A stretch of 64,000 nucleotides of DNA from Minisyncoccia bacterium. Its GTDB lineage: Bacteria > Patescibacteriota > Minisyncoccia > Phycocordibacterales > PALSA-1337. Below, piece by piece: positions 12,414 through 58,406 of this stretch. Position 1 is the stretch's first letter, and each line of letters opens with the position of its first letter. The notes under the pieces are model-generated. The model ran no database searches. It was given only the letters and a program-made list of their open reading frames with translations, and had not been told where the DNA came from. The position numbers and the translations under genes are program-made. The DNA is taken from positions 1,664 to 65,663 of the forward strand of contig JBEKVT010000002.1 in the NCBI GenBank assembly GCA_049997795.1. The letters run 5' to 3'.

Positions 12414-12938
12414 ATGGTCATGTTTTCGGATCCAGCCGCGAATCTGGCGAAATTAGGCCTTGCGGACGGCATGAAAGTCGTCGATCTGGGGGCCGGCTCC
12501 GGCTTCTATTCCATGGAGGCGGCCAAGATGGTCGGCGCGACCGGCCGGGTCTACGCCGTGGACGTTCAGAAAGAGCTCCTCGAGCGCCTGCGGGGGGTTG
12601 CGGCCTCGCACGGCATCCGCAACATCGAAGTCATCTGGGGCAACGCCGAGAAGATCGGCGGGCTCAGATTGAGGGATGGTCTGGCGGACCGGGTCATCGC
12701 CTCGAACATCCTCTTTCAGATAGCCAAGCCGGACGATTTCGTCTTGGAGATAAAGCGCGCTCTGAAGCCCGGCGGCAAGGTCCTCCTCATCGACTGGAGC
12801 GGGGCCAGCGCCTTGAGCCCCAAGACCATCGTGCCGGCTCAAAAGGCCCAGACGCTTTTCGAGAAGAACGGCTTCGGGCTCGAACAGTCTTTCGGAGCGG
12901 GAGACCACCATTACGGGCTCGTATTTGTCAGGAATTGA
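12414..12938 (+). CDS. Class I SAM-dependent methyltransferase
   Basis: VVDLGAGSGFYS motif I; ALKPGGKVLLID motif; possible alternative start at 12420 six to nine nt after TGgTAAAAT. Confidence 0.8.
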   Translation: MVMFSDPAANLAKLGLADGMKVVDLGAGSGFYSMEAAKMVGATGRVYAVDVQKELLERLRGVAASHGIRNIEVIWGNAEKIGGLRLRDGLADRVIASNILFQIAKPDDFVLEIKRALKPGGKVLLIDWSGASALSPKTIVPAQKAQTLFEKNGFGLEQSFGAGDHHYGLVFVRN

Positions 12939-12941
12939 CCG

Positions 12942-14243
12942 ATGAAAACCTCGAAATTCCAACTCATCATATTCATAGTCTTCATCCTCTTCATCGCGGC
13001 CGGGGTGGCGGCCTTCGCCACCTACAAAGGTTCCAGCTCCGGTAGCCAGCTGCCGACGATCACCGTCTGGGGCACGTTCCCGAAGGACGTCTTCGACCAG
13101 TATGTCATCCAAGTGGGCAACTCTCTATCCTCGCCGATCTCGGTCAAATACGTCCAGGAATCGCCGGACGCCTTCCTGCAGGATTTCATCTCGGCCCTGG
13201 CGCGGGGGGCCGGCCCGGATGCCGTCCTCATACCGGCCGACATGATCCTGCCGGCCGAAGACAAGCTCGTGCCCATCCCGTACTCGGCCCTGCCGCAGGC
13301 TTCGTTCAAGAGCGCCTACATCGACGAGAGCTTCGTCTATCTCGGTTCAAACGGCGTCATGGCCGTGCCGTTCGCCGTCGACCCGATAGTCATGTACTGG
13401 GATCGCGACATGTTCGACGCCGCCGGCATCGCCTCGCCGCCCAAGTACTGGGACGATTTCGCGAACGCCATCAAGAAGATCACCGTTAAGAACGAGAATG
13501 GCACGGTGACGAGGAGCGCCGTGGCCATGGGTGATTTCACCAACGTGGTGAACGCCCGTGAGCTCCTCGGCTCGCTCTTCCTCCAGCTCGGCAATCCCAT
13601 CACGGTCCAGGCGTCGGACGGCAGCGTCTCGAGCGCCCTTAAGACCTCCGCCAAGGCCGATCCGACCCCGGCTCTGCAATTCTTCGCCGGCTTCGTCGAT
13701 CCGACGAGCGATTATTACTCGTGGAATCGGAGCTGGCCGGATTCCAAGACGGCTTTCCTGGCCGGCAGTCTGGCCACTTATTTCGGCTTCGCTTCTGAGC
13801 TCGCGGACATCCGGTCCAAGAATCCCAATCTGAATTTCGACGTGACAGCCCTGCCCGAGGCCCGTTCAGGCGGCACGACGGCGGTCTACGGCAAGCTCTA
13901 CGGCTTCTCCTTGGTCAAGGCCTCGCCCAACAATAATGCCGCATACGAGATCATCTCGACCTTGACGATGCCGCAATATCTGGTCAAGGTCTCCGACGCC
14001 ATGTATCTGCCGTCGGTCTCTCGCGACGTGATCGCCAGCGGCTCGACCGATCAATACATCACCATTTTCAACCAAGCGGCGCTCATCTCGAGGACCTGGC
14101 TCGACGCCGACCCGGCGAAGTCCGGCCAGATCTTCGGCTCCATGGTCCAAGCCGTCGTCTCCGGCCAGAGATCGGCCAGTCAGGCGGTCTCGGACGCGGG
14201 GAACCAGTATGACGCCGTGCTGCGGCAAGCCACCGGACAATAA
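12942..14243 (+). CDS. Membrane-anchored extracellular solute-binding protein (SBP family 1-like), orphan (no permease nearby)
   Basis: 433 aa, N-terminal TM, ITVWGTFP, PKYWDDF, maltose-binding-like fold patterns. Confidence 0.6.
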   Translation: MKTSKFQLIIFIVFILFIAAGVAAFATYKGSSSGSQLPTITVWGTFPKDVFDQYVIQVGNSLSSPISVKYVQESPDAFLQDFISALARGAGPDAVLIPADMILPAEDKLVPIPYSALPQASFKSAYIDESFVYLGSNGVMAVPFAVDPIVMYWDRDMFDAAGIASPPKYWDDFANAIKKITVKNENGTVTRSAVAMGDFTNVVNARELLGSLFLQLGNPITVQASDGSVSSALKTSAKADPTPALQFFAGFVDPTSDYYSWNRSWPDSKTAFLAGSLATYFGFASELADIRSKNPNLNFDVTALPEARSGGTTAVYGKLYGFSLVKASPNNNAAYEIISTLTMPQYLVKVSDAMYLPSVSRDVIASGSTDQYITIFNQAALISRTWLDADPAKSGQIFGSMVQAVVSGQRSASQAVSDAGNQYDAVLRQATGQ

Positions 14244-14254
14244 CGCCTAAAATC

Positions 14255-14692
14255 ATGAAACACGCTCTCTTCATCGCATCGCTTCTCGTCCTTCTCGGTC
14301 CGTTCGCCGCGCCGACCGTCCTGGCCCAGGTGCCGGAAGCCAACATAAACAACGCCAGCTTCCGTCTCGTCATCTGCGATGGACCGGCTCTGCCGGCGAA
14401 CGTCCCGCCGCCGACAACTGACTACGTCCCTTGTGACTTCCAGCATCTCATGATAGAGGCCCAATACCTGATCAACGTCATGATAATCCTCGGCACACTC
14501 GGAGCCTTGATAGGCTTCGCTTACGCCGGCTATCTCTACATAACCGGCACCCAGCCGAATCTGGCCAAGGCCAAGGGCATATTTCCAAAGGTCTTCTGGG
14601 GGTTTATACTGATGCTGACCGCCTGGTTCATCGTCTATCAGATCCTCTCTTGGCTGACCGGGAACGCCGCGACGTATCTCGGCGGCTCGTAA
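14255..14692 (+). CDS. Pilin-like paralog P1: signal peptide + two C-terminal TM helices (VirB2/TrbC-like architecture); 2 Cys in exposed region
   Basis: SP MKHALFIASLLVLLGPFAAPTVLAQV; C-terminal FWGFILMLTAWFIVYQILSWL. Confidence 0.6.
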   Translation: MKHALFIASLLVLLGPFAAPTVLAQVPEANINNASFRLVICDGPALPANVPPPTTDYVPCDFQHLMIEAQYLINVMIILGTLGALIGFAYAGYLYITGTQPNLAKAKGIFPKVFWGFILMLTAWFIVYQILSWLTGNAATYLGGS

Positions 14693-14696
14693 TCAC

Positions 14697-15125
14697 ATGA
14701 AGAACATCCCGATGAAGAATCTCATTTATACCTTGGCTCTGGCCGTTTTGCTCGTCGGGGCTGCTCAATCCGCGAACGCCGATATCCAATCGGGGAACCC
14801 GAGCGGCACCTTCTCCCTTCAAAACCCTCTGCAATTCACGACCGTCGGCGACCTCATCAACGGCTTCCTGCAGATATTCTCATATGTGGCCGTCCTGTTC
14901 GCCGTCCTGATGCTAGTCTGGGTCGGCCTGCAATTCGTCCTGGCCAGGGGCAACCCCGAACGCATGAAAGTGCTGAAAAACTGGCTCCTGTGGATCGTCA
15001 TCGGGGCGGCCATCGTGATCGGCGCCAGGATCATCGTCTCGGTCGTCATAAACACCCTAGGCTCGACAGGCGCGGTCAACCAGAATATCCTGAATAGCGC
15101 CAATAACGCCCTCAATAAGCCGTGA
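14697..15125 (+). CDS. Pilin-like paralog P2 (SP + two TM helices)
   Basis: SP ...LALAVLLVGAAQSANA; helix pair FSYVAVLFAVLMLVWVGLQF / WLLWIVIGAAIVIGARIIV. Confidence 0.6.
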   Translation: MKNIPMKNLIYTLALAVLLVGAAQSANADIQSGNPSGTFSLQNPLQFTTVGDLINGFLQIFSYVAVLFAVLMLVWVGLQFVLARGNPERMKVLKNWLLWIVIGAAIVIGARIIVSVVINTLGSTGAVNQNILNSANNALNKP

Positions 15126-15164
15126 GACCTCTTGGCCGATTAACAGCCGTTTAAAAACATAACC

Positions 15165-15554
15165 ATGAAGAAAAAGCTCATCGTGTTTGCCTCCGTCCTC
15201 CCGTTCATCTTGCCGACCGTGGTTCAAGCTCAAACCCCCGTCGCTCTCAATTGTGATCCGAAGACATTATGCTATGTCGTGAGCCAGGTCATCGCGTACC
15301 TGAACCTGGCCTTGAGCTTGCTGATGGCGGTGGCCATCGTCATGTTCGTGTGGTACGTGATCAAGTATTACATCAGGCCCAACGAGGAGCGCAAACAAGC
15401 CGGACTATACGTCATGTACAGCATCATCGGCTTTTTCGTCATCCTGTCCATCTGGGGCATCATCAACATCCTCGGCAGCACCTTCGGTCTGGGGAACGCC
15501 GGCAACCAGCAAAAGAGCTGGAGCAGCTTCGTCAATCTCTTCCCGCAGCAATGA
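15165..15554 (+). CDS. Pilin-like paralog P3 (SP + two TM helices, Cys pair)
   Basis: C-terminal YSIIGFFVILSIWGIINILGSTFGLGNAGNQ shared with P4. Confidence 0.65.
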   Translation: MKKKLIVFASVLPFILPTVVQAQTPVALNCDPKTLCYVVSQVIAYLNLALSLLMAVAIVMFVWYVIKYYIRPNEERKQAGLYVMYSIIGFFVILSIWGIINILGSTFGLGNAGNQQKSWSSFVNLFPQQ

Positions 15555-15589
15555 AATATTATGATCGACCATAACCGATACACACTATC

Positions 15590-15913
15590 ATGATGCAAGT
15601 CACGGACGTCAATTCACTGTTCTACAAGCTGAATGGGATCGGCAACGCCGTGACCATTCTGCTCGTCTCGCTCGCGGTCATCTGGATAGTCGTCTCCGTC
15701 GTGCGTTTCATCATGGCGAGCGGGGAGAACCGGGCCGTTCACCGGGCTTCCGTCCTTTGGGGCATCGTCGGTCTAGCCGTCATCCTGTCCATCTGGGGCA
15801 TCATCAACATCTTCGGGCGCACTTTTGGACTGGGAAATGCCCAGAATCAATGGCGATCTTCGAGGGACGCGAACAGCCTGATCATGACGCCTCCGGTATC
15901 GCCATTCCAGTAA
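15590..15913 (+). CDS. Pilin-like paralog P4, no signal peptide (possible silent or truncated copy)
   Basis: Starts directly in mature-like region VTDVNSLFYKLNGIGNAV; shares 33-nt identical block gtcatcctgtccatctggggcatcatcaacatc with P3. Confidence 0.5.
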   Translation: MMQVTDVNSLFYKLNGIGNAVTILLVSLAVIWIVVSVVRFIMASGENRAVHRASVLWGIVGLAVILSIWGIINIFGRTFGLGNAQNQWRSSRDANSLIMTPPVSPFQ

Positions 15914-16015
15914 TCCACAGCCAGCGCTTCTTTTTAGAGGCGATATCGGCTATAATCCGGATGGCTACAAGTGATTTTAACAGTCGTCATTAACCAATCA
16001 TCCATCAGCATTATC

Positions 16016-16378
16016 ATGAAAAAGCTCATAGCATCGCTCGCGGTCCTGACCCCGTCGGTCGCCTTCGCCGCCCAGCCGATCACTGACGTCAACTCGCTGA
16101 CCCAGAAGCTGACCGGCATCGGCAATACCGTGATCGGCATCCTGATCTCGCTCGCGGTCATCTGGATCATCTGGAACGTCGTCTCTTTCATCATCCACGC
16201 CGACAATCCGGAGAAGCGCGGCGAGAGCGGCAAGGCCATCCTTTGGGGCGTCGTCGGCCTGTTCGTCATCCTGTCCATCTGGGGCCTGGTCAACATCCTG
16301 ACCGGCACGTTCAGCACCAATACCCAGGCGCCGGTCCAGAACTACCCGGTCAATCCCAATCCGCCGATAGTCCAGTGA
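16016..16378 (+). CDS. Pilin-like paralog P5 (SP + two TM helices)
   Basis: MKKLIASLAVLTPSVAFAAQPITDVNSLTQKLTGIGNTV...; TATAAT at about 15945. Confidence 0.65.
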   Translation: MKKLIASLAVLTPSVAFAAQPITDVNSLTQKLTGIGNTVIGILISLAVIWIIWNVVSFIIHADNPEKRGESGKAILWGVVGLFVILSIWGLVNILTGTFSTNTQAPVQNYPVNPNPPIVQ

Positions 16379-16391
16379 CCGAATAGCCAGC

Positions 16392-16643
16392 GTGGCTTCC
16401 CCGTTCTTCAAGGCCATAAACCCGATCATCACCAACGTGGTCAATCCGCTGGTGTGGCTGGCTTTCGCCGTGGCCTTCGTCGTCTTCGCCTACGGGGTCG
16501 TCCAGATGATCACTCACGAAACGGACGCGGAGGCCCACAAGCGGGGAAGATGGAGCATCTTGAGCGGCATAATCGGCATGTTCATCATGTTCTCGGCCTG
16601 GGGCATCATCAATATCGTCGCCAACACGGTCAAGTCGCTTTGA
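16392..16643 (+). CDS. Pilin-like paralog P6, minimal two-helix unit, GTG start, no signal peptide
   Basis: 83 aa; WSILSGIIGMFIMFSAWGIINIV matches family C-terminal consensus. Confidence 0.5.
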   Translation: MASPFFKAINPIITNVVNPLVWLAFAVAFVVFAYGVVQMITHETDAEAHKRGRWSILSGIIGMFIMFSAWGIINIVANTVKSL

Positions 16644-16671
16644 GCCCAGGCAAGCGAAAACCTGGGAAATA

Positions 16672-16712
16672 AAAAAAGGGCCGCAGGAGAGTTCGTCTCC
16701 GCGGCCCTTGGA
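16672..16712 (-). terminator. Intrinsic terminator for minus-strand SPFH operon (hairpin GGGCCGC...GCGGCCC followed by U-run on minus strand)
   Basis: Seen in sequence: AAAAAAAGGGCCGCAGGAGAGTTCGTCTCCGCGGCCC. Confidence 0.5.
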
Positions 16713-16727
16713 CGTCAAGCGCCGTCC

Positions 16728-17141
16728 TCAGGTGTCATCCTTCTTGAAGGTGCAAGTGACCTCGGCGTATCCGGTTTTTTCCCGGTTGAGCCGATATCCC
16801 TTTTTCCAGATCCCCTTGCCGCGATCCTGATAAGGCCGGGGCAGGATGTATTCGGTCGGAGGGAGCGATCTGTCCGTTCCCCTGTATACCCGAAGGTCGA
16901 CGGGAGCCGAACCCCAATCGTCGGTCATCGTCCAGCCGTCCTTGATCTCGACGTATACCCAAGGGTGATCCGGCATCTCCCTCACCCAGAAGGTCTTGGT
17001 ATAGGAGGTCCGGCCCCGGCTGCCGTCGTCTCCGGCCCTTGGGCCGGATCCGTGCAGCGTCGGTGGGTTGGCCAAGAAGTACAGAACGATGAGCGACCCG
17101 AAGCCTATCAATACAGTCAGCCATTTGCGCTTCTTGTTCAT
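16728..17141 (-). CDS. Membrane-anchored small protein, possible NfeD-like partner of SPFH protein
   Basis: 137 aa, one N-terminal TM then beta-rich domain; 4-nt overlap with upstream SPFH gene. Confidence 0.4.
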   Translation of the reverse strand: MNKKRKWLTVLIGFGSLIVLYFLANPPTLHGSGPRAGDDGSRGRTSYTKTFWVREMPDHPWVYVEIKDGWTMTDDWGSAPVDLRVYRGTDRSLPPTEYILPRPYQDRGKGIWKKGYRLNREKTGYAEVTCTFKKDDT

Positions 17142-18145
17142 GATTTGCCTCCTTTATTGCCCCCTTGGGCCATGTTCACGATGGTGTCGCGAAGGACGAT
17201 TCCGCTGACCGGGTGTTCGCCCTTGCTCTCGATCTGCAGACGGTTGACGTGCTCGTCCCTGACGAGGCGCGCTTCGACCGCGGCATTCCAGGCAGCCTGC
17301 TCGTCGAGGCCGAGCTCCGTCATGAAGAGCTTTGCCGTGGCGATATCGCCCTTGGATTCCGTCGCTCGCGCGTCGGTCTCGTAGACGATGCTGACGGCGT
17401 CGGTCATGCTCTGGTTTATCTTTTCGGGGATGGTGGCTTCGATCTGCACGCCCTGGCATTCGACCCCGAATGATCTTTCCTCGAGCACTCCCTTATGGTC
17501 GCCGTCGCCCTTCAGATGCTTCTCGAGCTCTCTCGAGATCAAGTCGCCGTGCTGGACCAGCTCGATGAAGTTCAGGCCGGCTTTATGGTCCGCGCCTTCC
17601 ATGGTCTTGACCAGCCTTTGGACCTCGCGGTAGGGGATGCCCCCCATGAGTTCCTTGATCTTGTCCAGATCGCGGCCGCTCTGAATGTATGAATTCAGAT
17701 GTTCCTTGTCAGGCCGGGCGGGGATATGGACTCTCACCGGCACCGCCACCGACCGTTGGTTGCCCCTGTCGTCGACCGTGTCCTCCACGGTCAGGATTAT
17801 CATGTTGAAGACCCATTCCTTGCTCGTCATGTCGATGGGCTTGACGCCGATGAAGAACGGGAAGTAATCCGCCAGGATGACCTTGCCGCGCAGGGCTATG
17901 GTCTTCCTGGTGTCTTCCTTCGGAGTCTTCCGGCCGGTCTTCACGGCTCTGCCCCAGCAGGTGAGCATGCCGAGCTCCAACGGATCGGGGGAGAGATTGG
18001 TCCAGCCCAAGGCGATGGCGACGAACCCCAGGCCGCCCACCACGATCCCCGCCCGCGAGTGCAGGACGACGATCATGAAGATGCCGGCCGAGATCAGGGA
18101 TCCGATCCACGACAATATCCCTAACATTATCAGCAGCTTTTTCAT
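17138..18145 (-). CDS. SPFH/band-7 (stomatin/flotillin-like) membrane protein
   Basis: 335 aa; two N-terminal TM helices followed by SPFH-like region; charged coiled C-terminus. Confidence 0.5.
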   Translation of the reverse strand: MKKLLIMLGILSWIGSLISAGIFMIVVLHSRAGIVVGGLGFVAIALGWTNLSPDPLELGMLTCWGRAVKTGRKTPKEDTRKTIALRGKVILADYFPFFIGVKPIDMTSKEWVFNMIILTVEDTVDDRGNQRSVAVPVRVHIPARPDKEHLNSYIQSGRDLDKIKELMGGIPYREVQRLVKTMEGADHKAGLNFIELVQHGDLISRELEKHLKGDGDHKGVLEERSFGVECQGVQIEATIPEKINQSMTDAVSIVYETDARATESKGDIATAKLFMTELGLDEQAAWNAAVEARLVRDEHVNRLQIESKGEHPVSGIVLRDTIVNMAQGGNKGGKS

Positions 18146-18352
18146 AAATCCTTTCAGTTGCGAACCGCCCCCGCAAGCAGGGAAGCTCTGGTTTCTGGTT
18201 AAATTGTCAACGTGCGTCCGAGCGGGCGCACAACAATTCCGCTGCCTGAAATGGTATCATTTTTTGACTGCAATGTCAAGCTAGCCGAGGCCTTCGCTCG
18301 GGTGTTATACTTCCGCCATTATTTGACCGGCAGAATCATCCCAAAAACGAAC

Positions 18353-19078
18353 ATGGACCAGCGCTCCGAGCAGCCGTCGAAATATTCCGTGCCGATCGCC
18401 ATCATCATCGGTTCGTTCGTCATAGCCGGCGCCATCATGCTCTCAGGAGGGAAATACTCGACCGCGCCGACGGCCGCACCGAACAACGCTGTCCAACAAA
18501 GAGTCCAGCCGCCGGTGGATTCTTCCAAGGTCAACGCCCAGGGCGAGCCGTTCATAGGAGAGAAGAGCGCCCCGGTCATCATAGCCTACTGGTACGATTA
18601 TCAGTGCCCGTTCTGCAAGCAGAATGAAGAGACATCCATGACCGAGCTCCTCAAGGATTACGTGGATACGGGCAAGGCCAGGATCATCTTCAAGGATTTC
18701 CAGTTCCTCGGTCCGGACTCACAGACTCTGGGCAAGGTCTCGCGCGCCGTCTGGGAAGCGGCCCCGGATAAGTTCTATGCCTGGCACAAGGCCATCTTCG
18801 ATAACCAAGGACAGGAGGGAAGCGGCTGGGCTACCCAAGCGAAGATCCAGTCGATCACAGTCTCGGTCCTGGGACAGGCCGACGCGGCCAAGGCTCTGGC
18901 CTTGGCGGATCAGAACGCTGCGACGTATCAGAAAGAGATGGATGCCGACAAGACCGAGGCCGCGAGCTTCGGCGTGAACGGCACGCCGGCCATGGTGATA
19001 GGGAAGCTCCTGGTCACGGGAGCGGCGCCGTATGCGGAGATAAAGTCCGACATCGAGACGACGCTCGCGGGGAAATAA
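18353..19078 (+). CDS. DsbA-family thiol:disulfide oxidoreductase, membrane-anchored
   Basis: CPFC active site (WYDYQCPFCKQ), thioredoxin fold, FGVNGTPA near C-terminus; start moved to internal Met after TM-less leader. Confidence 0.7.
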   Translation: MDQRSEQPSKYSVPIAIIIGSFVIAGAIMLSGGKYSTAPTAAPNNAVQQRVQPPVDSSKVNAQGEPFIGEKSAPVIIAYWYDYQCPFCKQNEETSMTELLKDYVDTGKARIIFKDFQFLGPDSQTLGKVSRAVWEAAPDKFYAWHKAIFDNQGQEGSGWATQAKIQSITVSVLGQADAAKALALADQNAATYQKEMDADKTEAASFGVNGTPAMVIGKLLVTGAAPYAEIKSDIETTLAGK

Positions 19079-57226: not shown

Positions 57227-58228
57227 ATGCTCAATCCAGACCTAAAACTGAATCTTAAGCTCTTCGATGCCGATGTCGATCAGATACCTATCCGCCAGGG
57301 TTTCGGCGAGGGCTTGTTGAAAGCGGCCGAGATGGATAAGCGCGTCGTGGGGTTGTGCGCCGACCTGACTGAGTCCACGCATATGCTGGCTTTCAAACAG
57401 AAATTCCCGGACAGATTCGTAGAGATCGGGGTGGCAGAACAGAATCTGGCGACTGTGGCTTCCGGTATGGCGGCCATGGGCAAGATCCCGTTCATCTCCT
57501 CGTACGCCATGTTCAGCCCGGGCAGGAATTGGGAGCAGATCCGGACTACCGTCGCCTACAACAACCGGCCGGTGAAGATAGCCGGTTCGCACGCCGGTGT
57601 GTCGGTTGGACCGGACGGCGGTACACATCAGGCCATAGAAGACCTGGCCATCACCCGAGTCATCCCGCGTATGGTCGTCATTTCGCCATGCGATGCCATT
57701 GAAGCCAGGAAAGCTACCTTGGCGGCGGCTAAGACCGACTCACCGACCTACATCCGTCTAGCCCGCGAGAAGACGCCGATAATGACAACGGATGACACGC
57801 CATTTTCCATAGGCAAGGCTGCCATCTTCTTCATGCCTGAAAATGGCAAGAAGGCCGACGTGGCTATCATCGCTACAGGCGCTCTCCTCCATAGGGCTTT
57901 GAAGACCGCCAAAGAATTGGAAGGGAACGGCAAAAACGTCACAGTGATGAACCTTTCGACCATAAAGCCCCTGGACGCCGACGCCGTCATCAATCTAGCT
58001 CATGAAGCCGGGGCCGTCGTCACGGTAGAAGAACATCAGGTCGCCGGGGGCATGGGTTCGGCCGTGGCGGAATGCCTGGCGGCGCATTATCCCGTTCCCA
58101 TCGAATTCATAGGCATCAAGGACAGATTCGGCCAGTCTGGAAGACCGGATGAGCTGATCGAACTCTATGGCATGGGAGAGAAAGATATATTGGATGCGGC
58201 CAGGAAGGCCATGGTCAGGAAGAAATAA
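57227..58228 (+). CDS. tktB: Transketolase, C-terminal (pyrimidine-binding + C-domain) subunit
   Basis: FVEIGVAEQNLATVASGMA, GPDGGTHQAIEDLA motifs. Confidence 0.85.
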   Translation: MLNPDLKLNLKLFDADVDQIPIRQGFGEGLLKAAEMDKRVVGLCADLTESTHMLAFKQKFPDRFVEIGVAEQNLATVASGMAAMGKIPFISSYAMFSPGRNWEQIRTTVAYNNRPVKIAGSHAGVSVGPDGGTHQAIEDLAITRVIPRMVVISPCDAIEARKATLAAAKTDSPTYIRLAREKTPIMTTDDTPFSIGKAAIFFMPENGKKADVAIIATGALLHRALKTAKELEGNGKNVTVMNLSTIKPLDADAVINLAHEAGAVVTVEEHQVAGGMGSAVAECLAAHYPVPIEFIGIKDRFGQSGRPDELIELYGMGEKDILDAARKAMVRKK

Positions 58229-58406
58229 GCCCTTAAGCGCTCTCCACATCCTGCCTTTACAGGATGCGTCAGGGTGATAAAATATCGCCATCATGGATTT
58301 CCGAGTTATCGAGGCCGTCAAGCTCGCCTGCCTTAGCGTCGTCATCGACGCCTTGGTTGGAAGCCGGCCTTTGTAACGAATCTCCCAAAATTGGTTACAG
58401 GAACGG

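What the first reader, a model, noticed from the sequence alone, without database searches (positions are those of the whole stretch)
15590..16643. Signal-peptide-less pilin paralogs and long identical nucleotide blocks between copies suggest gene conversion or silent cassettes
P4 (15590-15913) and P6 (16392-16643) begin directly in the mature-like region, for example P4 VTDVNSLFYKLNGIGNAV versus P5 ...AAQPITDVNSLTQKLTGIGNTV after its signal peptide. They lack any N-terminal signal peptide, and P6 starts with GTG immediately after the P5 stop. P3 and P4 share a 33-nt perfectly identical block (gtcatcctgtccatctggggcatcatcaacatc). P4 and P5 share tcgctcgcggtcatctggat and gtcatcctgtccatctggggc despite divergent flanks. 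This mosaic identity is what recombination between expressed and silent copies produces in antigenic-variation systems such as Neisseria pilE/pilS.
Basis: partly seen in the sequence, partly recalled or inferred. Interest (0 to 1): 0.6.

Follow-up and report, generated by a model that had tools for sequence, protein, structure and literature searches.

The report
Conserved six-gene VirB2-like pilin operon
This is a conserved operon of six different VirB2-like (type IV secretion) pilin genes in an ultrasmall CPR bacterium; two copies do lack a signal peptide and neighbouring copies have swapped short DNA stretches, but nothing supports a silent-cassette antigenic-variation system.

Summary
P4 (15590-15913) and P6 (16392-16643) have no room for a leader. 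The identical blocks exist: 34 nt in P3/P4, 20 nt in P4/P5, and a 21-mer in P3/P4/P5.

All six genes (14255-16643) are VirB2/TrbC-like T4SS_pilin proteins (PF18895) of a Minisyncoccia (CPR) bacterium, not type IV pilins. The unit gyrA–methyltransferase–solute-binding protein–P1 P2 P3 (P4) P5 P6 recurs in the same order in 48 species-level genomes. Each position is its own orthologous family.

Leaderless position-4 genes occur in about half of the 23 six-gene arrays examined. Leaderless P6 occurs in 4 of about 48. dN/dS is below 1 for both.

The 34-nt block exceeds a codon-resampling null (p≈0.001) and all 462 between-genome controls (maximum 20 nt). P4–P5 blocks of 33-123 nt occur in six other genomes. 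So short-tract gene conversion is recurrent, but it is confined to the conserved TM2 helix.

Ten independent contigs are 99.94-100% identical, and no P4 variant above 68% identity exists in 5.8 billion proteins.

Verdict: gene conversion supported; silent cassettes and antigenic variation not supported. This is a new member of the published Patescibacterial VirB2 pilin arrays.

The parts
12414..12938 (+). SAM-dependent methyltransferase, first gene of the tightly packed unit (3-nt gap to the next gene)
   Evidence: Pfam Methyltransf_31/11/25. Found immediately upstream of the SBP gene and pilin array in 42 of 44 species loci.
12942..14243 (+). 433-aa extracellular solute-binding-protein-like gene; its stop is 11 nt before the P1 start
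   Evidence: Pfam SBP_bac_8/SBP_bac_1. Present directly upstream of P1 in 44 of 44 species arrays at 45-63% identity.
14255..14692 (+). P1, 145 aa: leader plus Cys-containing N-tail plus two-TM hairpin; most divergent array member
   Evidence: PF18895 E=4e-4, 20.8 bits, below the 26.6 cutoff. Positional orthologs in 48 genomes. VICDGP...CDF is conserved in L011, L013 and L015. Three hydrophobic segments.
14697..15125 (+). P2, 142 aa: VirB2/TrbC-like pilin with leader
   Evidence: PF18895 45.2 bits and PF04956 TrbC 33.6 bits. Orthologs in other genomes carry long N-terminal extensions (163-285 aa).
15165..15554 (+). P3, 129 aa: VirB2-like pilin with leader; partner in the 34-nt tract
   Evidence: PF18895 36.2 bits. 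Three hydrophobic segments.
15590..15913 (+). P4, 107 aa: leaderless VirB2-like pilin occupying the optional 'position 4' of the array
   Evidence: PF18895 26.9 bits against a 26.6 cutoff. No room for a leader. AF2 model has helices 6-42, 48-78 and 81-98, pLDDT 73. Leaderless orthologs P0005, P0022, P0067, P0112 and about 12 of 23 position-4 genes. dN/dS 0.30-0.47.
15437..15470 (+). 34-nt block in P3 (codes VILSIWGIINI), identical to 15778-15811 in P4; its first 22 nt are also shared with P5 (16264-16285)
   Evidence: Codon-resampling p = 0.0005-0.002.
15778..15811 (+). 34-nt block in P4, identical to the P3 copy; inferred short gene-conversion tract
   Evidence: WGII is unique among 22 position-4 orthologs.
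15668..15687 (+). 20-nt block in P4 (TM1, SLAVIWI), identical to 16148-16167 in P5
   Evidence: Only borderline significance.
15914..15956 (+). Conserved promoter-like module upstream of P5: TCCACA (15914-15919), 31 nt, TATAAT (15951-15956), lying in the only long intra-array gap (102 nt)
   Evidence: The gap before P5 has a median of 95 nt, against 10 nt for other intra-array gaps. TCCACA-N29-33-TAnAAT is present in 43 of 48 arrays. It occurs only twice in the window, against 0.04 expected.
16016..16378 (+). P5, 120 aa: VirB2-like pilin with leader; the most widely conserved family and the inferred major subunit
   Evidence: PF18895 43.9 bits. More than 100 homologs of about 118-124 aa. Own promoter-like module.
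16392..16643 (+). P6, 83 aa, GTG start: leaderless VirB2-like hairpin, 13 nt after the P5 stop
   Evidence: PF18895 38.4 bits. Orthologs are 49-74% identical and nearly all carry a short M-x(5-12)-AxA leader; the leader is absent in W, L039, L051 and L065. AF2 model has helices 4-41 and 46-82, pLDDT 74. dN/dS 0.18-0.29.
16676..16709 (.). GC-rich hairpin between the array and the convergent minus-strand gene (16728-17141); marks the end of the operon
   Evidence: The 86-nt region folds at -40.3 kcal/mol, z = -4.6. An A-run precedes it, which is a T-run on the minus strand.

Best explanation
The region is a chromosomal, vertically inherited operon of a Minisyncoccia/Paceibacteria (CPR) bacterium. 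It encodes six non-redundant VirB2/TrbC-like two-helix membrane hairpin proteins (T4SS_pilin family), packed directly behind a methyltransferase gene and a solute-binding-protein-like gene.

Each array position is a separate orthologous family, so the copies are different subunits rather than interchangeable alleles. The inferred arrangement is a major subunit, P5, with its own promoter-like module, plus accessory or minor subunits P1-P4 and P6. Together they would build the pilus or membrane assembly linked to the Patescibacterial type IV secretion apparatus.

P4 and P6 are functional leaderless versions. Their short, nearly uncharged N-tails are inferred to cross the membrane without a cleavable signal peptide, driven by the first TM helix, as with Pf3-coat-type N-tail insertion. 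Lineages have lost the leader repeatedly.

The identical nucleotide blocks are footprints of short-tract ectopic gene conversion between adjacent paralogs. It is seeded in, and confined to, the conserved second TM helix (…ILSIWG…). It homogenises that helix rather than creating surface diversity.

Shown here: family assignment, synteny and orthology, absence of leaders, purifying selection, excess nucleotide identity, and absence of population variants. Inferred: pilus formation, subunit roles, insertion route, and transcription units.
For: Family: all six hit PF18895, and P2 also hits TrbC. All have a two-TM hairpin.

Organism and context: NCBI names the exact P4 sequence as a Minisyncoccia bacterium MAG protein. 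The window is housekeeping chromosome, with gyrA, SMC, ClpB, TopA and UvrB.

Synteny: the same gene order is found in L011, L013 and L015 and in 48 species-level genomes, 22 with six genes and 26 with five. The MTase-SBP pair is upstream in 42-44 of 44.

Leaderless orthologs.

Purifying selection: dN/dS is 0.10-0.47 for all six genes.

Conversion:
- The 34-nt run has p≈0.001.
- Within-genome runs exceed between-genome runs: P3-P4 is 34 nt in W against a maximum of 20; P4-P5 is 123, 82, 53, 50, 41 and 33 nt in other genomes against a maximum of 22.
- In those genomes the same-codon fraction is 15/16 to 18/18 in TM2 but about 0.5 in the flanks.
- The block carries foreign character states.
- Max-chi-square mosaic test gives p = 0.001.

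No variation: 10 contigs are 99.94-100% identical, with SNPs only at 13956, 15023 and 16716. The P4 cluster is a singleton.

Transcription units: a conserved TCCACA-N31-TATAAT module lies before P5 and a hairpin follows P6.

Literature: VirB2-like arrays of 2-11 genes were found in 383 Patescibacteria assemblies, with mean identity 25% and maximum 54% (PMC12102498). A six-pilin array is essential in Southlakia epibionticum (PMC10633639, PMC12857230).
Against: - No VirB4 or other T4SS gene lies in the 64-kb window; every ORF of at least 600 aa is a housekeeping gene. The link to a T4SS therefore rests on family membership and literature.
- P1 is below the Pfam cutoff and P4 is barely above it.
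- Fold searches gave no significant match: the best for P6 was the Aeropyrum conjugation pilus 8dfu at E=1.1, and nothing relevant appeared for P4.
- No signal-peptide predictor was available; leaders were judged by hydropathy and by eye.
- There are no expression data.
- dS is near saturation, so dN/dS values are rough.
- Between-genome controls differ in codon usage, which inflates the within/between contrast. The codon-resampling null addresses this only for the window.
- Assemblies are consensus sequences, so rare recombinant subpopulations would be invisible.
Confidence: 0.72

Rival explanations
1. Programmed antigenic or phase variation. One expressed pilin locus would be diversified by recombination with promoter-less, leader-less silent cassettes (P4, P6), as in Neisseria pilE/pilS.
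For: P4 and P6 lack leaders. Identical blocks lie within divergent flanks. P4 is mosaic, P5-like at the 5' end and P3-like at the 3' end. The literature speculates about antigenic variation or host-range adaptation for VirB2 arrays (PMC12102498).
Against: - These are not type IV pilins.
- P4 and P6 are complete ORFs with start codons and both helices.
- Each is a conserved ortholog at a fixed position in 22-48 species, with dN/dS below 1.
- The window has no G4 motif.
- Ten contigs show 0-1 SNP and no rearrangement.
- No P4 variant between 68% and 100% identity exists in 5.8 billion proteins.
- Converted tracts lie in the conserved TM2 helix, not in the exposed tails.
- P6 is 13 nt behind P5, downstream of a conserved promoter-like module.
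Confidence: 0.04
2. No gene conversion occurred. The identical blocks would be residual shared ancestry plus strong codon bias, or nucleotide-level selection, on a highly conserved peptide motif (VILSIWG).
For: - Codon bias is strong (ATC 79% of Ile, GTC dominant for Val).
- The same 21-mer occurs as a single copy in arrays of three other species.
- The P4/P5 blocks of 20-22 nt are only borderline.
- P4 and P5 are generally closer to each other (same-codon 30/46).
Against: - The 34-nt run has p = 0.0005-0.002 under a codon-bias-aware null.
- Flanking identical amino acids (TFGLGNA) use different codons: 9/27 the same outside the block against 10/10 inside it.
- None of 462 between-genome P3/P4 pairs exceeds 20 nt.
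- Block-specific amino-acid states are atypical for the family of the gene that carries them.
- Tracts of 41-123 nt in other genomes, with diverged flanks, cannot be ancestry.
Confidence: 0.12
3. P4 and/or P6 are decaying, non-functional remnants. They would be N-terminally truncated duplicates that can no longer be exported and are on the way to loss.
For: - Position 4 is dispensable in 26 of 48 arrays.
- P4 has the highest dN/dS (0.30-0.47) and the weakest Pfam score.
- Nearly all P6 orthologs keep a short leader that the window copy lacks.
Against: - Both ORFs are intact, with both helices.
- dN/dS is below 1, and for P6 it is 0.18-0.29, like its neighbours.
- Leaderless forms recur independently in distant species while the rest of the protein stays conserved.
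- The sequence is identical across 10 contigs.
- CPR genomes are small, and established knowledge is that they rarely retain dead genes.
Confidence: 0.08

Closest known systems
VirB2-like pilin arrays of Patescibacteria (Quiñonero-Coronel et al. 2025, PMC12102498); the essential six-pilin array of Southlakia epibionticum ML1 (Wang et al. 2023, PMC10633639; review PMC12857230)
   Same: Same Pfam families (PF18895 and PF04956). Tandem array of six sequence-divergent but structurally similar two-helix pilins in a CPR chromosome. Pairwise identity is 18-53% here, against the published mean of 25% and maximum of 54%.
   Different: Here the array is not next to virB4 or other T4SS genes within 64 kb. 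It is instead fused into a unit with a methyltransferase gene and a solute-binding-protein-like gene near gyrA. The points below were found here and did not come up in the passages of these papers that I searched:
- fixed positional orthology across 48 Paceibacteria species;
- recurrent leader loss;
- TM2-restricted gene conversion;
- a conserved promoter-like module before P5.
Tandem virB2 paralogs of Anaplasma phagocytophilum and Bartonella T4SS loci (as cited in PMC12102498; PMC3556328)
   Same: Multiple VirB2 paralogs in tandem on the chromosome. They have been proposed to provide surface diversity or host adaptation.
   Different: Those belong to diderm, VirB/D4-type systems of intracellular pathogens. 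They sit in or near T4SS loci, and from general knowledge they carry signal peptides. No orthology to the present families was tested.
Neisseria gonorrhoeae pilE/pilS antigenic variation
   Same: Several related 'pilin' sequences are clustered, with short identical blocks between otherwise divergent copies, and there is evidence of non-reciprocal sequence transfer.
   Different: - The protein superfamily is different (type IV pilin versus VirB2-like).
- pilS copies lack a start codon, a promoter and the conserved 5' coding region, whereas P4 and P6 are complete genes that lack only the leader.
- There is no G4 element here.
- There is no population variation.
- Here conversion hits the conserved helix, not the variable exposed regions.
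Minor-pilin / pseudopilin gene sets of type IV pili and type II secretion (functional analogy only, from established knowledge)
   Same: A fixed, conserved set of several non-interchangeable paralogous subunits is encoded in one operon alongside a major subunit.
   Different: The fold and the assembly machinery are unrelated. The analogy is an inference about division of labour, not homology.
Pf3 coat protein-type leaderless N-out membrane insertion (established knowledge; analogy for P4 and P6)
   Same: A small protein with a short, weakly charged N-tail followed by a TM helix and no cleavable signal peptide.
   Different: Pf3 coat has a single span and is a phage protein. The insertion route of P4 and P6 is untested.

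Membership tests
T4SS_pilin (PF18895) / TrbC-VirB2 (PF04956) superfamily | Significant match to the family profile at or above Pfam's gathering score | tested here: met
   Against the 26.6-bit cutoff, P2 scores 45.2, P3 36.2, P4 26.9, P5 43.9 and P6 38.4 bits. P2 also scores 33.6 bits on TrbC (cutoff 27.9). P1 scores only 20.8 bits, below the cutoff, and is assigned by position and orthology.
T4SS_pilin (PF18895) / TrbC-VirB2 (PF04956) superfamily | Small protein forming a hairpin of two hydrophobic helices joined by a short polar or basic loop | tested here: met
   Hydropathy shows two TM segments in the mature part of all six. AF2 models give P6 helices 4-41 and 46-82, and P4 helices 6-42 and 48-78. 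Foldseek against PDB was not significant; the top P6 hit was the A. pernix conjugation pilus at E=1.1.
T4SS_pilin (PF18895) / TrbC-VirB2 (PF04956) superfamily | N-terminal cleavable leader peptide on the propilin | tested here: not met
   This row is marked 'not met' because of P4 and P6, which have no leader and no room for one. P1, P2, P3 and P5 do have a leader-like hydrophobic N-terminus ending in an AxA-type site (heuristic). Leaderless orthologs exist in other species. No SignalP-type predictor was available.
T4SS_pilin (PF18895) / TrbC-VirB2 (PF04956) superfamily | Genetic association with the T4SS core (VirB4, VirB6, VirB3/8) | tested here: not met
   No such gene lies in the 64-kb window; all ORFs of at least 600 aa are gyrA, SMC, ClpB, TopA or UvrB. 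Whether the genome encodes VirB4 elsewhere could not be tested. Published data place pilin genes near virB4 in only 1135 of 1948 assemblies (PMC12102498).
T4SS_pilin (PF18895) / TrbC-VirB2 (PF04956) superfamily | Polymerises into an extracellular conjugative-type pilus | not testable with these tools
   This needs cryo-EM, cryo-ET or biochemistry.
Patescibacterial VirB2 pilin array (PMC12102498) | 2-11 VirB2-like genes in tandem, or separated by one gene, in a Patescibacteria genome, with low within-array identity | tested here: met
   Six tandem genes with pairwise amino-acid identity of 18-53%. NCBI names the source a Minisyncoccia bacterium.
Neisseria-type pilE/pilS silent-cassette antigenic variation | Type IV pilin (class III leader, N-methylated hydrophobic α1 helix) | tested here: not met
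   Pfam returns only the VirB2-like families; no type IV pilin or N-methylation family appears.
Neisseria-type pilE/pilS silent-cassette antigenic variation | Silent copies lack a start codon, a promoter and the conserved 5' coding part, and are not conserved as genes | tested here: not met
   P4 and P6 have ATG and GTG starts and a full two-helix domain. They are positional orthologs across species under purifying selection.
Neisseria-type pilE/pilS silent-cassette antigenic variation | Guanine-quadruplex recombination initiator near the expressed locus | tested here: not met
   No G3+N1-7 x4 motif occurs on either strand anywhere in the window.
Neisseria-type pilE/pilS silent-cassette antigenic variation | Population-level sequence variants of the expressed copy carrying cassette-derived segments | tested here: not met
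   Ten contigs from several samples are 99.94-100% identical over 12901-18200, with no SNP in P3-P6. The P4 90%-identity cluster has one member and the next hit is 68% identical. Caveat: these are consensus assemblies, not reads.

The most novel reading that the evidence does not exclude
The conserved gyrA-linked unit of methyltransferase, solute-binding protein and five or six VirB2-like hairpin proteins may be a dedicated heteromeric surface filament or conduit of Paceibacteria, encoded apart from the T4SS ATPase locus. P5 would be the separately promoted major subunit. The leaderless P4 and P6 would be specialised subunits, for example base, initiator or cap. Recurrent gene conversion restricted to the TM2 helix would keep the subunit-subunit packing interface compatible, a form of concerted evolution of an assembly interface. 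The invariant solute-binding-protein partner hints at a role in capturing host-derived nutrients rather than in conjugation.
Probability: 0.25. Interest if true: 0.6.

Novelty: new member of a known kind. Interest (0 to 1): 0.33.

Why it matters
VirB2-like pilin arrays are among the few essential and unexplained surface systems of CPR/Patescibacteria. They were essential in the only Tn-seq study (PMC10633639), and their role is described as completely unknown (PMC11665869).

This locus shows that in Paceibacteria the array is a fixed set of five or six distinct orthologous subunits, not a pool of variable copies. That argues for a heteromeric structure and against the antigenic-variation idea floated in the literature.

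It also gives testable leads:
- leaderless subunits;
- a conserved promoter-like module marking P5 as the probable major subunit;
- an invariant solute-binding-protein partner;
- gene conversion focused on one helix.

For the scan itself, the main result is that the silent-cassette reading can be set aside.

Tried and rejected
- Better start prediction for P4 and P6: rejected. In-frame stops lie 5-7 codons upstream and the gaps are only 35 and 13 nt.
- Shine-Dalgarno comparison to separate 'expressed' from 'silent' copies: uninformative. None of the six genes, and few housekeeping genes in the window, has an SD motif.
- G-quadruplex search: none in the window. An earlier tool call with this pattern failed on syntax.
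- Foldseek of AF2 models against PDB: no significant hits, since small helical hairpins are non-specific. A PDB sequence-profile search found nothing relevant.
- Rfam scan: only six tRNAs, and nothing in the array or the P5 leader.
- Metagenome scan for the 21-mer, intended to find strain variants: it returned only three arrays of other species, each with one copy, plus one unrelated high-GC contig. The window's own population is not in that collection.
- First longest-common-substring pass: invalid, because stop-to-stop ORFs physically overlap. It was redone with trimmed genes.
- Assembly artefact as the cause of the blocks: rejected. The sequence is identical in 10 independent assemblies, and the repeats are far shorter than the assemblers' k-mer, as inferred from the k141 contig names.
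- The simple promoter/terminator scan gave nothing decisive.
- The max-chi-square mosaic signal is real. However, most of it reflects old family relationships: the P3-like tail TFGLGN is shared by position-4 orthologs in other species. It is therefore not evidence for recent recombination beyond the 34-nt tract.
Full report
**1. What is in the sequence**

Window 14255-16643 carries six tandem + strand ORFs:
- P1 14255-14692
- P2 14697-15125
- P3 15165-15554
- P4 15590-15913
- P5 16016-16378 (the ATG; the mechanical ORF starts at GTG 15971)
- P6 16392-16643 (GTG start)

Gaps within the array are 4-39 nt, except for 102 nt before P5. A strong GC-rich hairpin at 16676-16709 separates P6 from a convergent minus-strand gene.

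- P4 begins 35 nt after the P3 stop and P6 begins 13 nt after the P5 stop. In-frame stops lie just upstream, so no alternative start can supply a leader.
- Hydropathy finds three hydrophobic segments in P1, P2, P3 and P5 (leader plus two TM helices) but only two in P4 and P6.
- All quoted identical blocks are exact. The '33-nt' block is actually 34 nt, at 15437-15470 and 15778-15811.

**2. What the genes are**

All six match Pfam PF18895 (T4SS_pilin). P2 also matches PF04956 (TrbC/VirB2). P1 is below the curated cutoff and P4 is just above it. These are therefore VirB2-like pilins of type IV secretion systems, not type IV pilus pilins like Neisseria PilE.

AlphaFold2 models of P6 and P4 are helical hairpins with pLDDT 73-74. 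Fold and sequence searches against PDB were not significant, as expected for so simple a fold.

The exact P4 protein is recorded by NCBI from a 'Minisyncoccia bacterium' MAG, that is, CPR/Patescibacteria. The rest of the window is ordinary chromosome: gyrA, S1 protein, SMC, ClpB, TopA, SerRS, UvrB and tRNAs. No VirB4-sized gene is unaccounted for.

**3. Comparative genomics**

I looked up contigs that encode homologs and scanned one genome per species for P6 relatives. This gave 48 species-level Paceibacteria/Taylorbacteria-type genomes with the same array in the same order: P1-P2-P3-(P4)-P5-P6. Twenty-two have six genes and 26 have five, the latter lacking position 4.

In 44 of 44 loci with enough upstream sequence, the 433-aa solute-binding-protein-like gene directly precedes P1. 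The methyltransferase precedes the SBP gene in 42 of 44, and gyrA lies further upstream.

Proteins group by position, not by genome. The six copies are thus old, distinct orthologous families. W-versus-ortholog dN/dS is 0.10-0.47 for all six, with P4 at 0.30-0.47 and P6 at 0.18-0.29. dS is near saturation, so these values are rough, but the direction is clear.

**4. The leaderless copies**

Among the 23 position-4 genes I examined (22 other species plus the window), about 12 have no signal-peptide-like N-terminus. Examples are MITDANSL…, MNSAAVTNAG…, MPPINQINNAN… and MNQTVFNTINNAN…. The rest begin MKK… followed by a hydrophobic stretch and AxA or AQ. Database homologs P0005, P0022, P0067 and P0112 are likewise leaderless, and they share P4's C-terminal tail motif.

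P6 orthologs (49-74% identity) nearly all carry a very short leader, M-x(5-12)-A-x-A. This leader is missing in the window and, independently, in L039, L051 and L065.

Leader loss is therefore recurrent and tolerated in otherwise conserved genes. I infer that the hairpins insert without a cleavable leader. The N-tails are short and nearly uncharged, while the inter-helix loops carry three K/R residues each. This fits an N-out/loop-in topology, as known for VirB2/TraA pilins (established knowledge).

Two observations fit an extracytoplasmic N-terminus:
- a conserved Cys pair in the N-tail of P1;
- long N-terminal extensions in P2 orthologs, up to 285 aa with a repeat-rich or FN3-like segment in L013.

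**5. The identical blocks**

I resampled synonymous codons with the amino-acid sequences held fixed. A 34-nt run or longer between any pair occurs with p = 0.0005-0.002.

For P3/P4 the overall same-codon fraction at identical residues is at background (19/37). It is 10/10 inside the block and 9/27 outside it. The conserved TFGLGNA just downstream uses different codons in 5 of 7 positions.

Empirically, the longest exact match between P3 of one genome and P4 of another never exceeds 20 nt in 462 pairs. Within genomes, the window's 34 nt is the outlier, and the next highest is 16.

The block also carries 'foreign' residues:
- W_P4 has WGII, whereas 21 of 22 position-4 orthologs have WGLV. II is a P3/P6 state.
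- W_P3 has I before WG, a state found in 47/48 P5 orthologs and 13/22 position-4 orthologs but only 5/48 P3 orthologs.

This points to at least two short exchanges, or one patchy heteroduplex, among P3, P4 and P5.

The phenomenon is general for the P4/P5 pair. Identical tracts of 123, 82, 53, 50, 41 and 33 nt occur in six other genomes, against a between-genome maximum of 22. In the four or five genomes with tracts of 41 nt or more, the TM2 segment has 13/18 to 18/18 identical codons, while the N-terminal flanks are near 0.5.

The window's own P4/P5 blocks of 20-22 nt are only borderline. The 21-mer also exists as a single copy in arrays of three other species, so by itself it proves little.

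A max-chi-square test confirms that P4 is mosaic: P5-like at the 5' end (57:14 informative sites) and P3-like at the 3' end (15:8), p = 0.001. Most of the 3' signal is an old family trait, however, because the tail TFGLGN is shared by position-4 orthologs elsewhere.

**6. Is it an antigenic-variation system?**

The evidence says no.
- The copies are complete, conserved and position-specific.
- The converted tracts lie in the most conserved membrane helix. The variable N- and C-terminal tails are the parts exposed on known conjugative pili (established knowledge).
- The window has no G4 motif.
- The exact P4 sequence is found on 22 contigs. The ten retrieved, from at least nine samples and two assembly pipelines, are 99.94-100% identical to the window over 5.3 kb. 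Single SNPs fall at 13956, 15023 and 16716, none in P3-P6, and there are no rearrangements.
- In a 5.8-billion-protein database the P4 cluster at 90% identity has one member, and the next relative is 68% identical.

Caveat: assemblies are consensus sequences, so low-frequency variants cannot be excluded.

**7. Expression signals**

No gene of the array, and few housekeeping genes in the window, has a Shine-Dalgarno motif. Its absence before P4 and P6 therefore means nothing.

The one long gap, before P5, is conserved in length: median 95 nt, against 10 nt for the other gaps. In 43 of 48 arrays it contains (T)AATCCACA(G) followed 29-33 nt later by a TAnAAT box, about 40 nt before the ATG. The pattern occurs only twice in the window, against 0.04 expected.

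I infer that P5-P6 form a separately promoted unit and that P5 is the major subunit. P1-P4 would be co-transcribed with the methyltransferase and SBP genes. If so, P6 is expressed whenever P5 is.

**8. Relation to what is known**

Quiñonero-Coronel et al. (PMC12102498) report 441 VirB2 arrays of 2-11 genes in 383 Patescibacteria assemblies, with a mean within-array identity of 25% and a maximum of 54%. They speculate about antigenic variation or adaptation to different host strains.

Wang et al. (PMC10633639) and a 2025 review (PMC12857230) describe an essential array of six sequence-divergent VirB2-like pilins inside the T4SS locus of Southlakia epibionticum.

The present array, with pairwise identity 18-53%, is a new member of that known kind. 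The following were observed here and did not appear in the passages of those papers that I searched:
- its location away from any VirB4, in a unit with an SBP-like gene;
- strict positional orthology over 48 species;
- recurrent leader loss;
- TM2-limited gene conversion;
- the promoter-like module before P5.

These are incremental and unverified experimentally.

**9. Verdict**

The most novel reading still open is that this is a dedicated SBP-linked heteromeric filament or conduit whose packing helix is kept uniform by conversion. I give that a probability of about 0.25.

Noticed in passing
window 15914-15956; loci L011-L081, upstream of the P5 ortholog: A conserved module, (T)AATCCACA(G)-N29-33-TAnAAT, lies about 40 nt before the P5 start in 43 of 48 species arrays, in the only long intra-array gap. 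The 30-31 nt spacing does not fit a standard -35/-10 promoter. It may be an activator site plus a -10 box, or an unknown CPR promoter type.
   Followed up: partly
window 58243-58283 (+): This is the only other TCCACA-N27-34-TAWAAT match in the window (TCCACATCCTGCC…GATAAAAT). It sits just after the ORF ending at 58228 and about 470 nt upstream of uvrB (58756). The stretch between them has no convincing ORF or Rfam hit, so it could hold an unannotated small gene or RNA under the same control.
   Followed up: partly
window 12414-14243; loci L017-L081: A methyltransferase gene and a 433-aa solute-binding-protein-like gene (45-63% identical across species) are packed directly in front of P1, with 3-nt and 11-nt gaps, in every array examined (42-44 of 44). 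This suggests a functional link between an SBP-like protein and the VirB2-like array.
   Followed up: partly
L013 4749-5606 (P2 ortholog, 285 aa); L015 4631-5323 (230 aa): P2 orthologs in other species carry long N-terminal insertions between the leader and the pilin hairpin. These are Ser/Thr/Pro-rich repeats, and in L013 an FN3-like stretch judged by eye (…FDVNWTFVTGAQRYMVFWKA…). They look like a pilin with an adhesin-like decoration.
   Followed up: no
window 14255-14692 (P1), 15165-15554 (P3), 18212-19078: P1 has a conserved Cys pair in its N-tail (VICDGP…CDF), kept in L011, L013 and L015. P3 has LNCDPKTLC. A membrane-anchored DsbA-like thioredoxin gene lies 1.6 kb downstream and is syntenic in L015. 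Together these suggest disulfide-bonded extracellular tails.
   Followed up: no
P6 orthologs in L011-L081 and P0122-P0142: Nearly all P6-family proteins have an unusually short leader (M plus 5-12 residues ending A-x-A) with no positively charged n-region. It is too short for a canonical Sec signal peptide. Its processing route is unclear.
   Followed up: partly
window, upstream of gyrA (8767), uvrB (58756), the MgsA-like gene (33907), the metallophosphatase (46778) and topA (39987, minus strand): Several housekeeping genes have TATACT, TATAGT or TAGACT-type boxes only about 5-15 nt before the start codon, and no Shine-Dalgarno motif. This hints at widespread leaderless or very short-leader mRNAs in this organism.
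   Followed up: no
window 16728-18145 (minus strand): Two convergent genes of 137 aa and 335 aa have no Pfam hit here. An ortholog of the 335-aa protein in L015 has a faint Band_7 hit, and the protein is found downstream of the array in at least 13 species at 21-35% identity. It may be part of the same conserved neighbourhood.
   Followed up: partly
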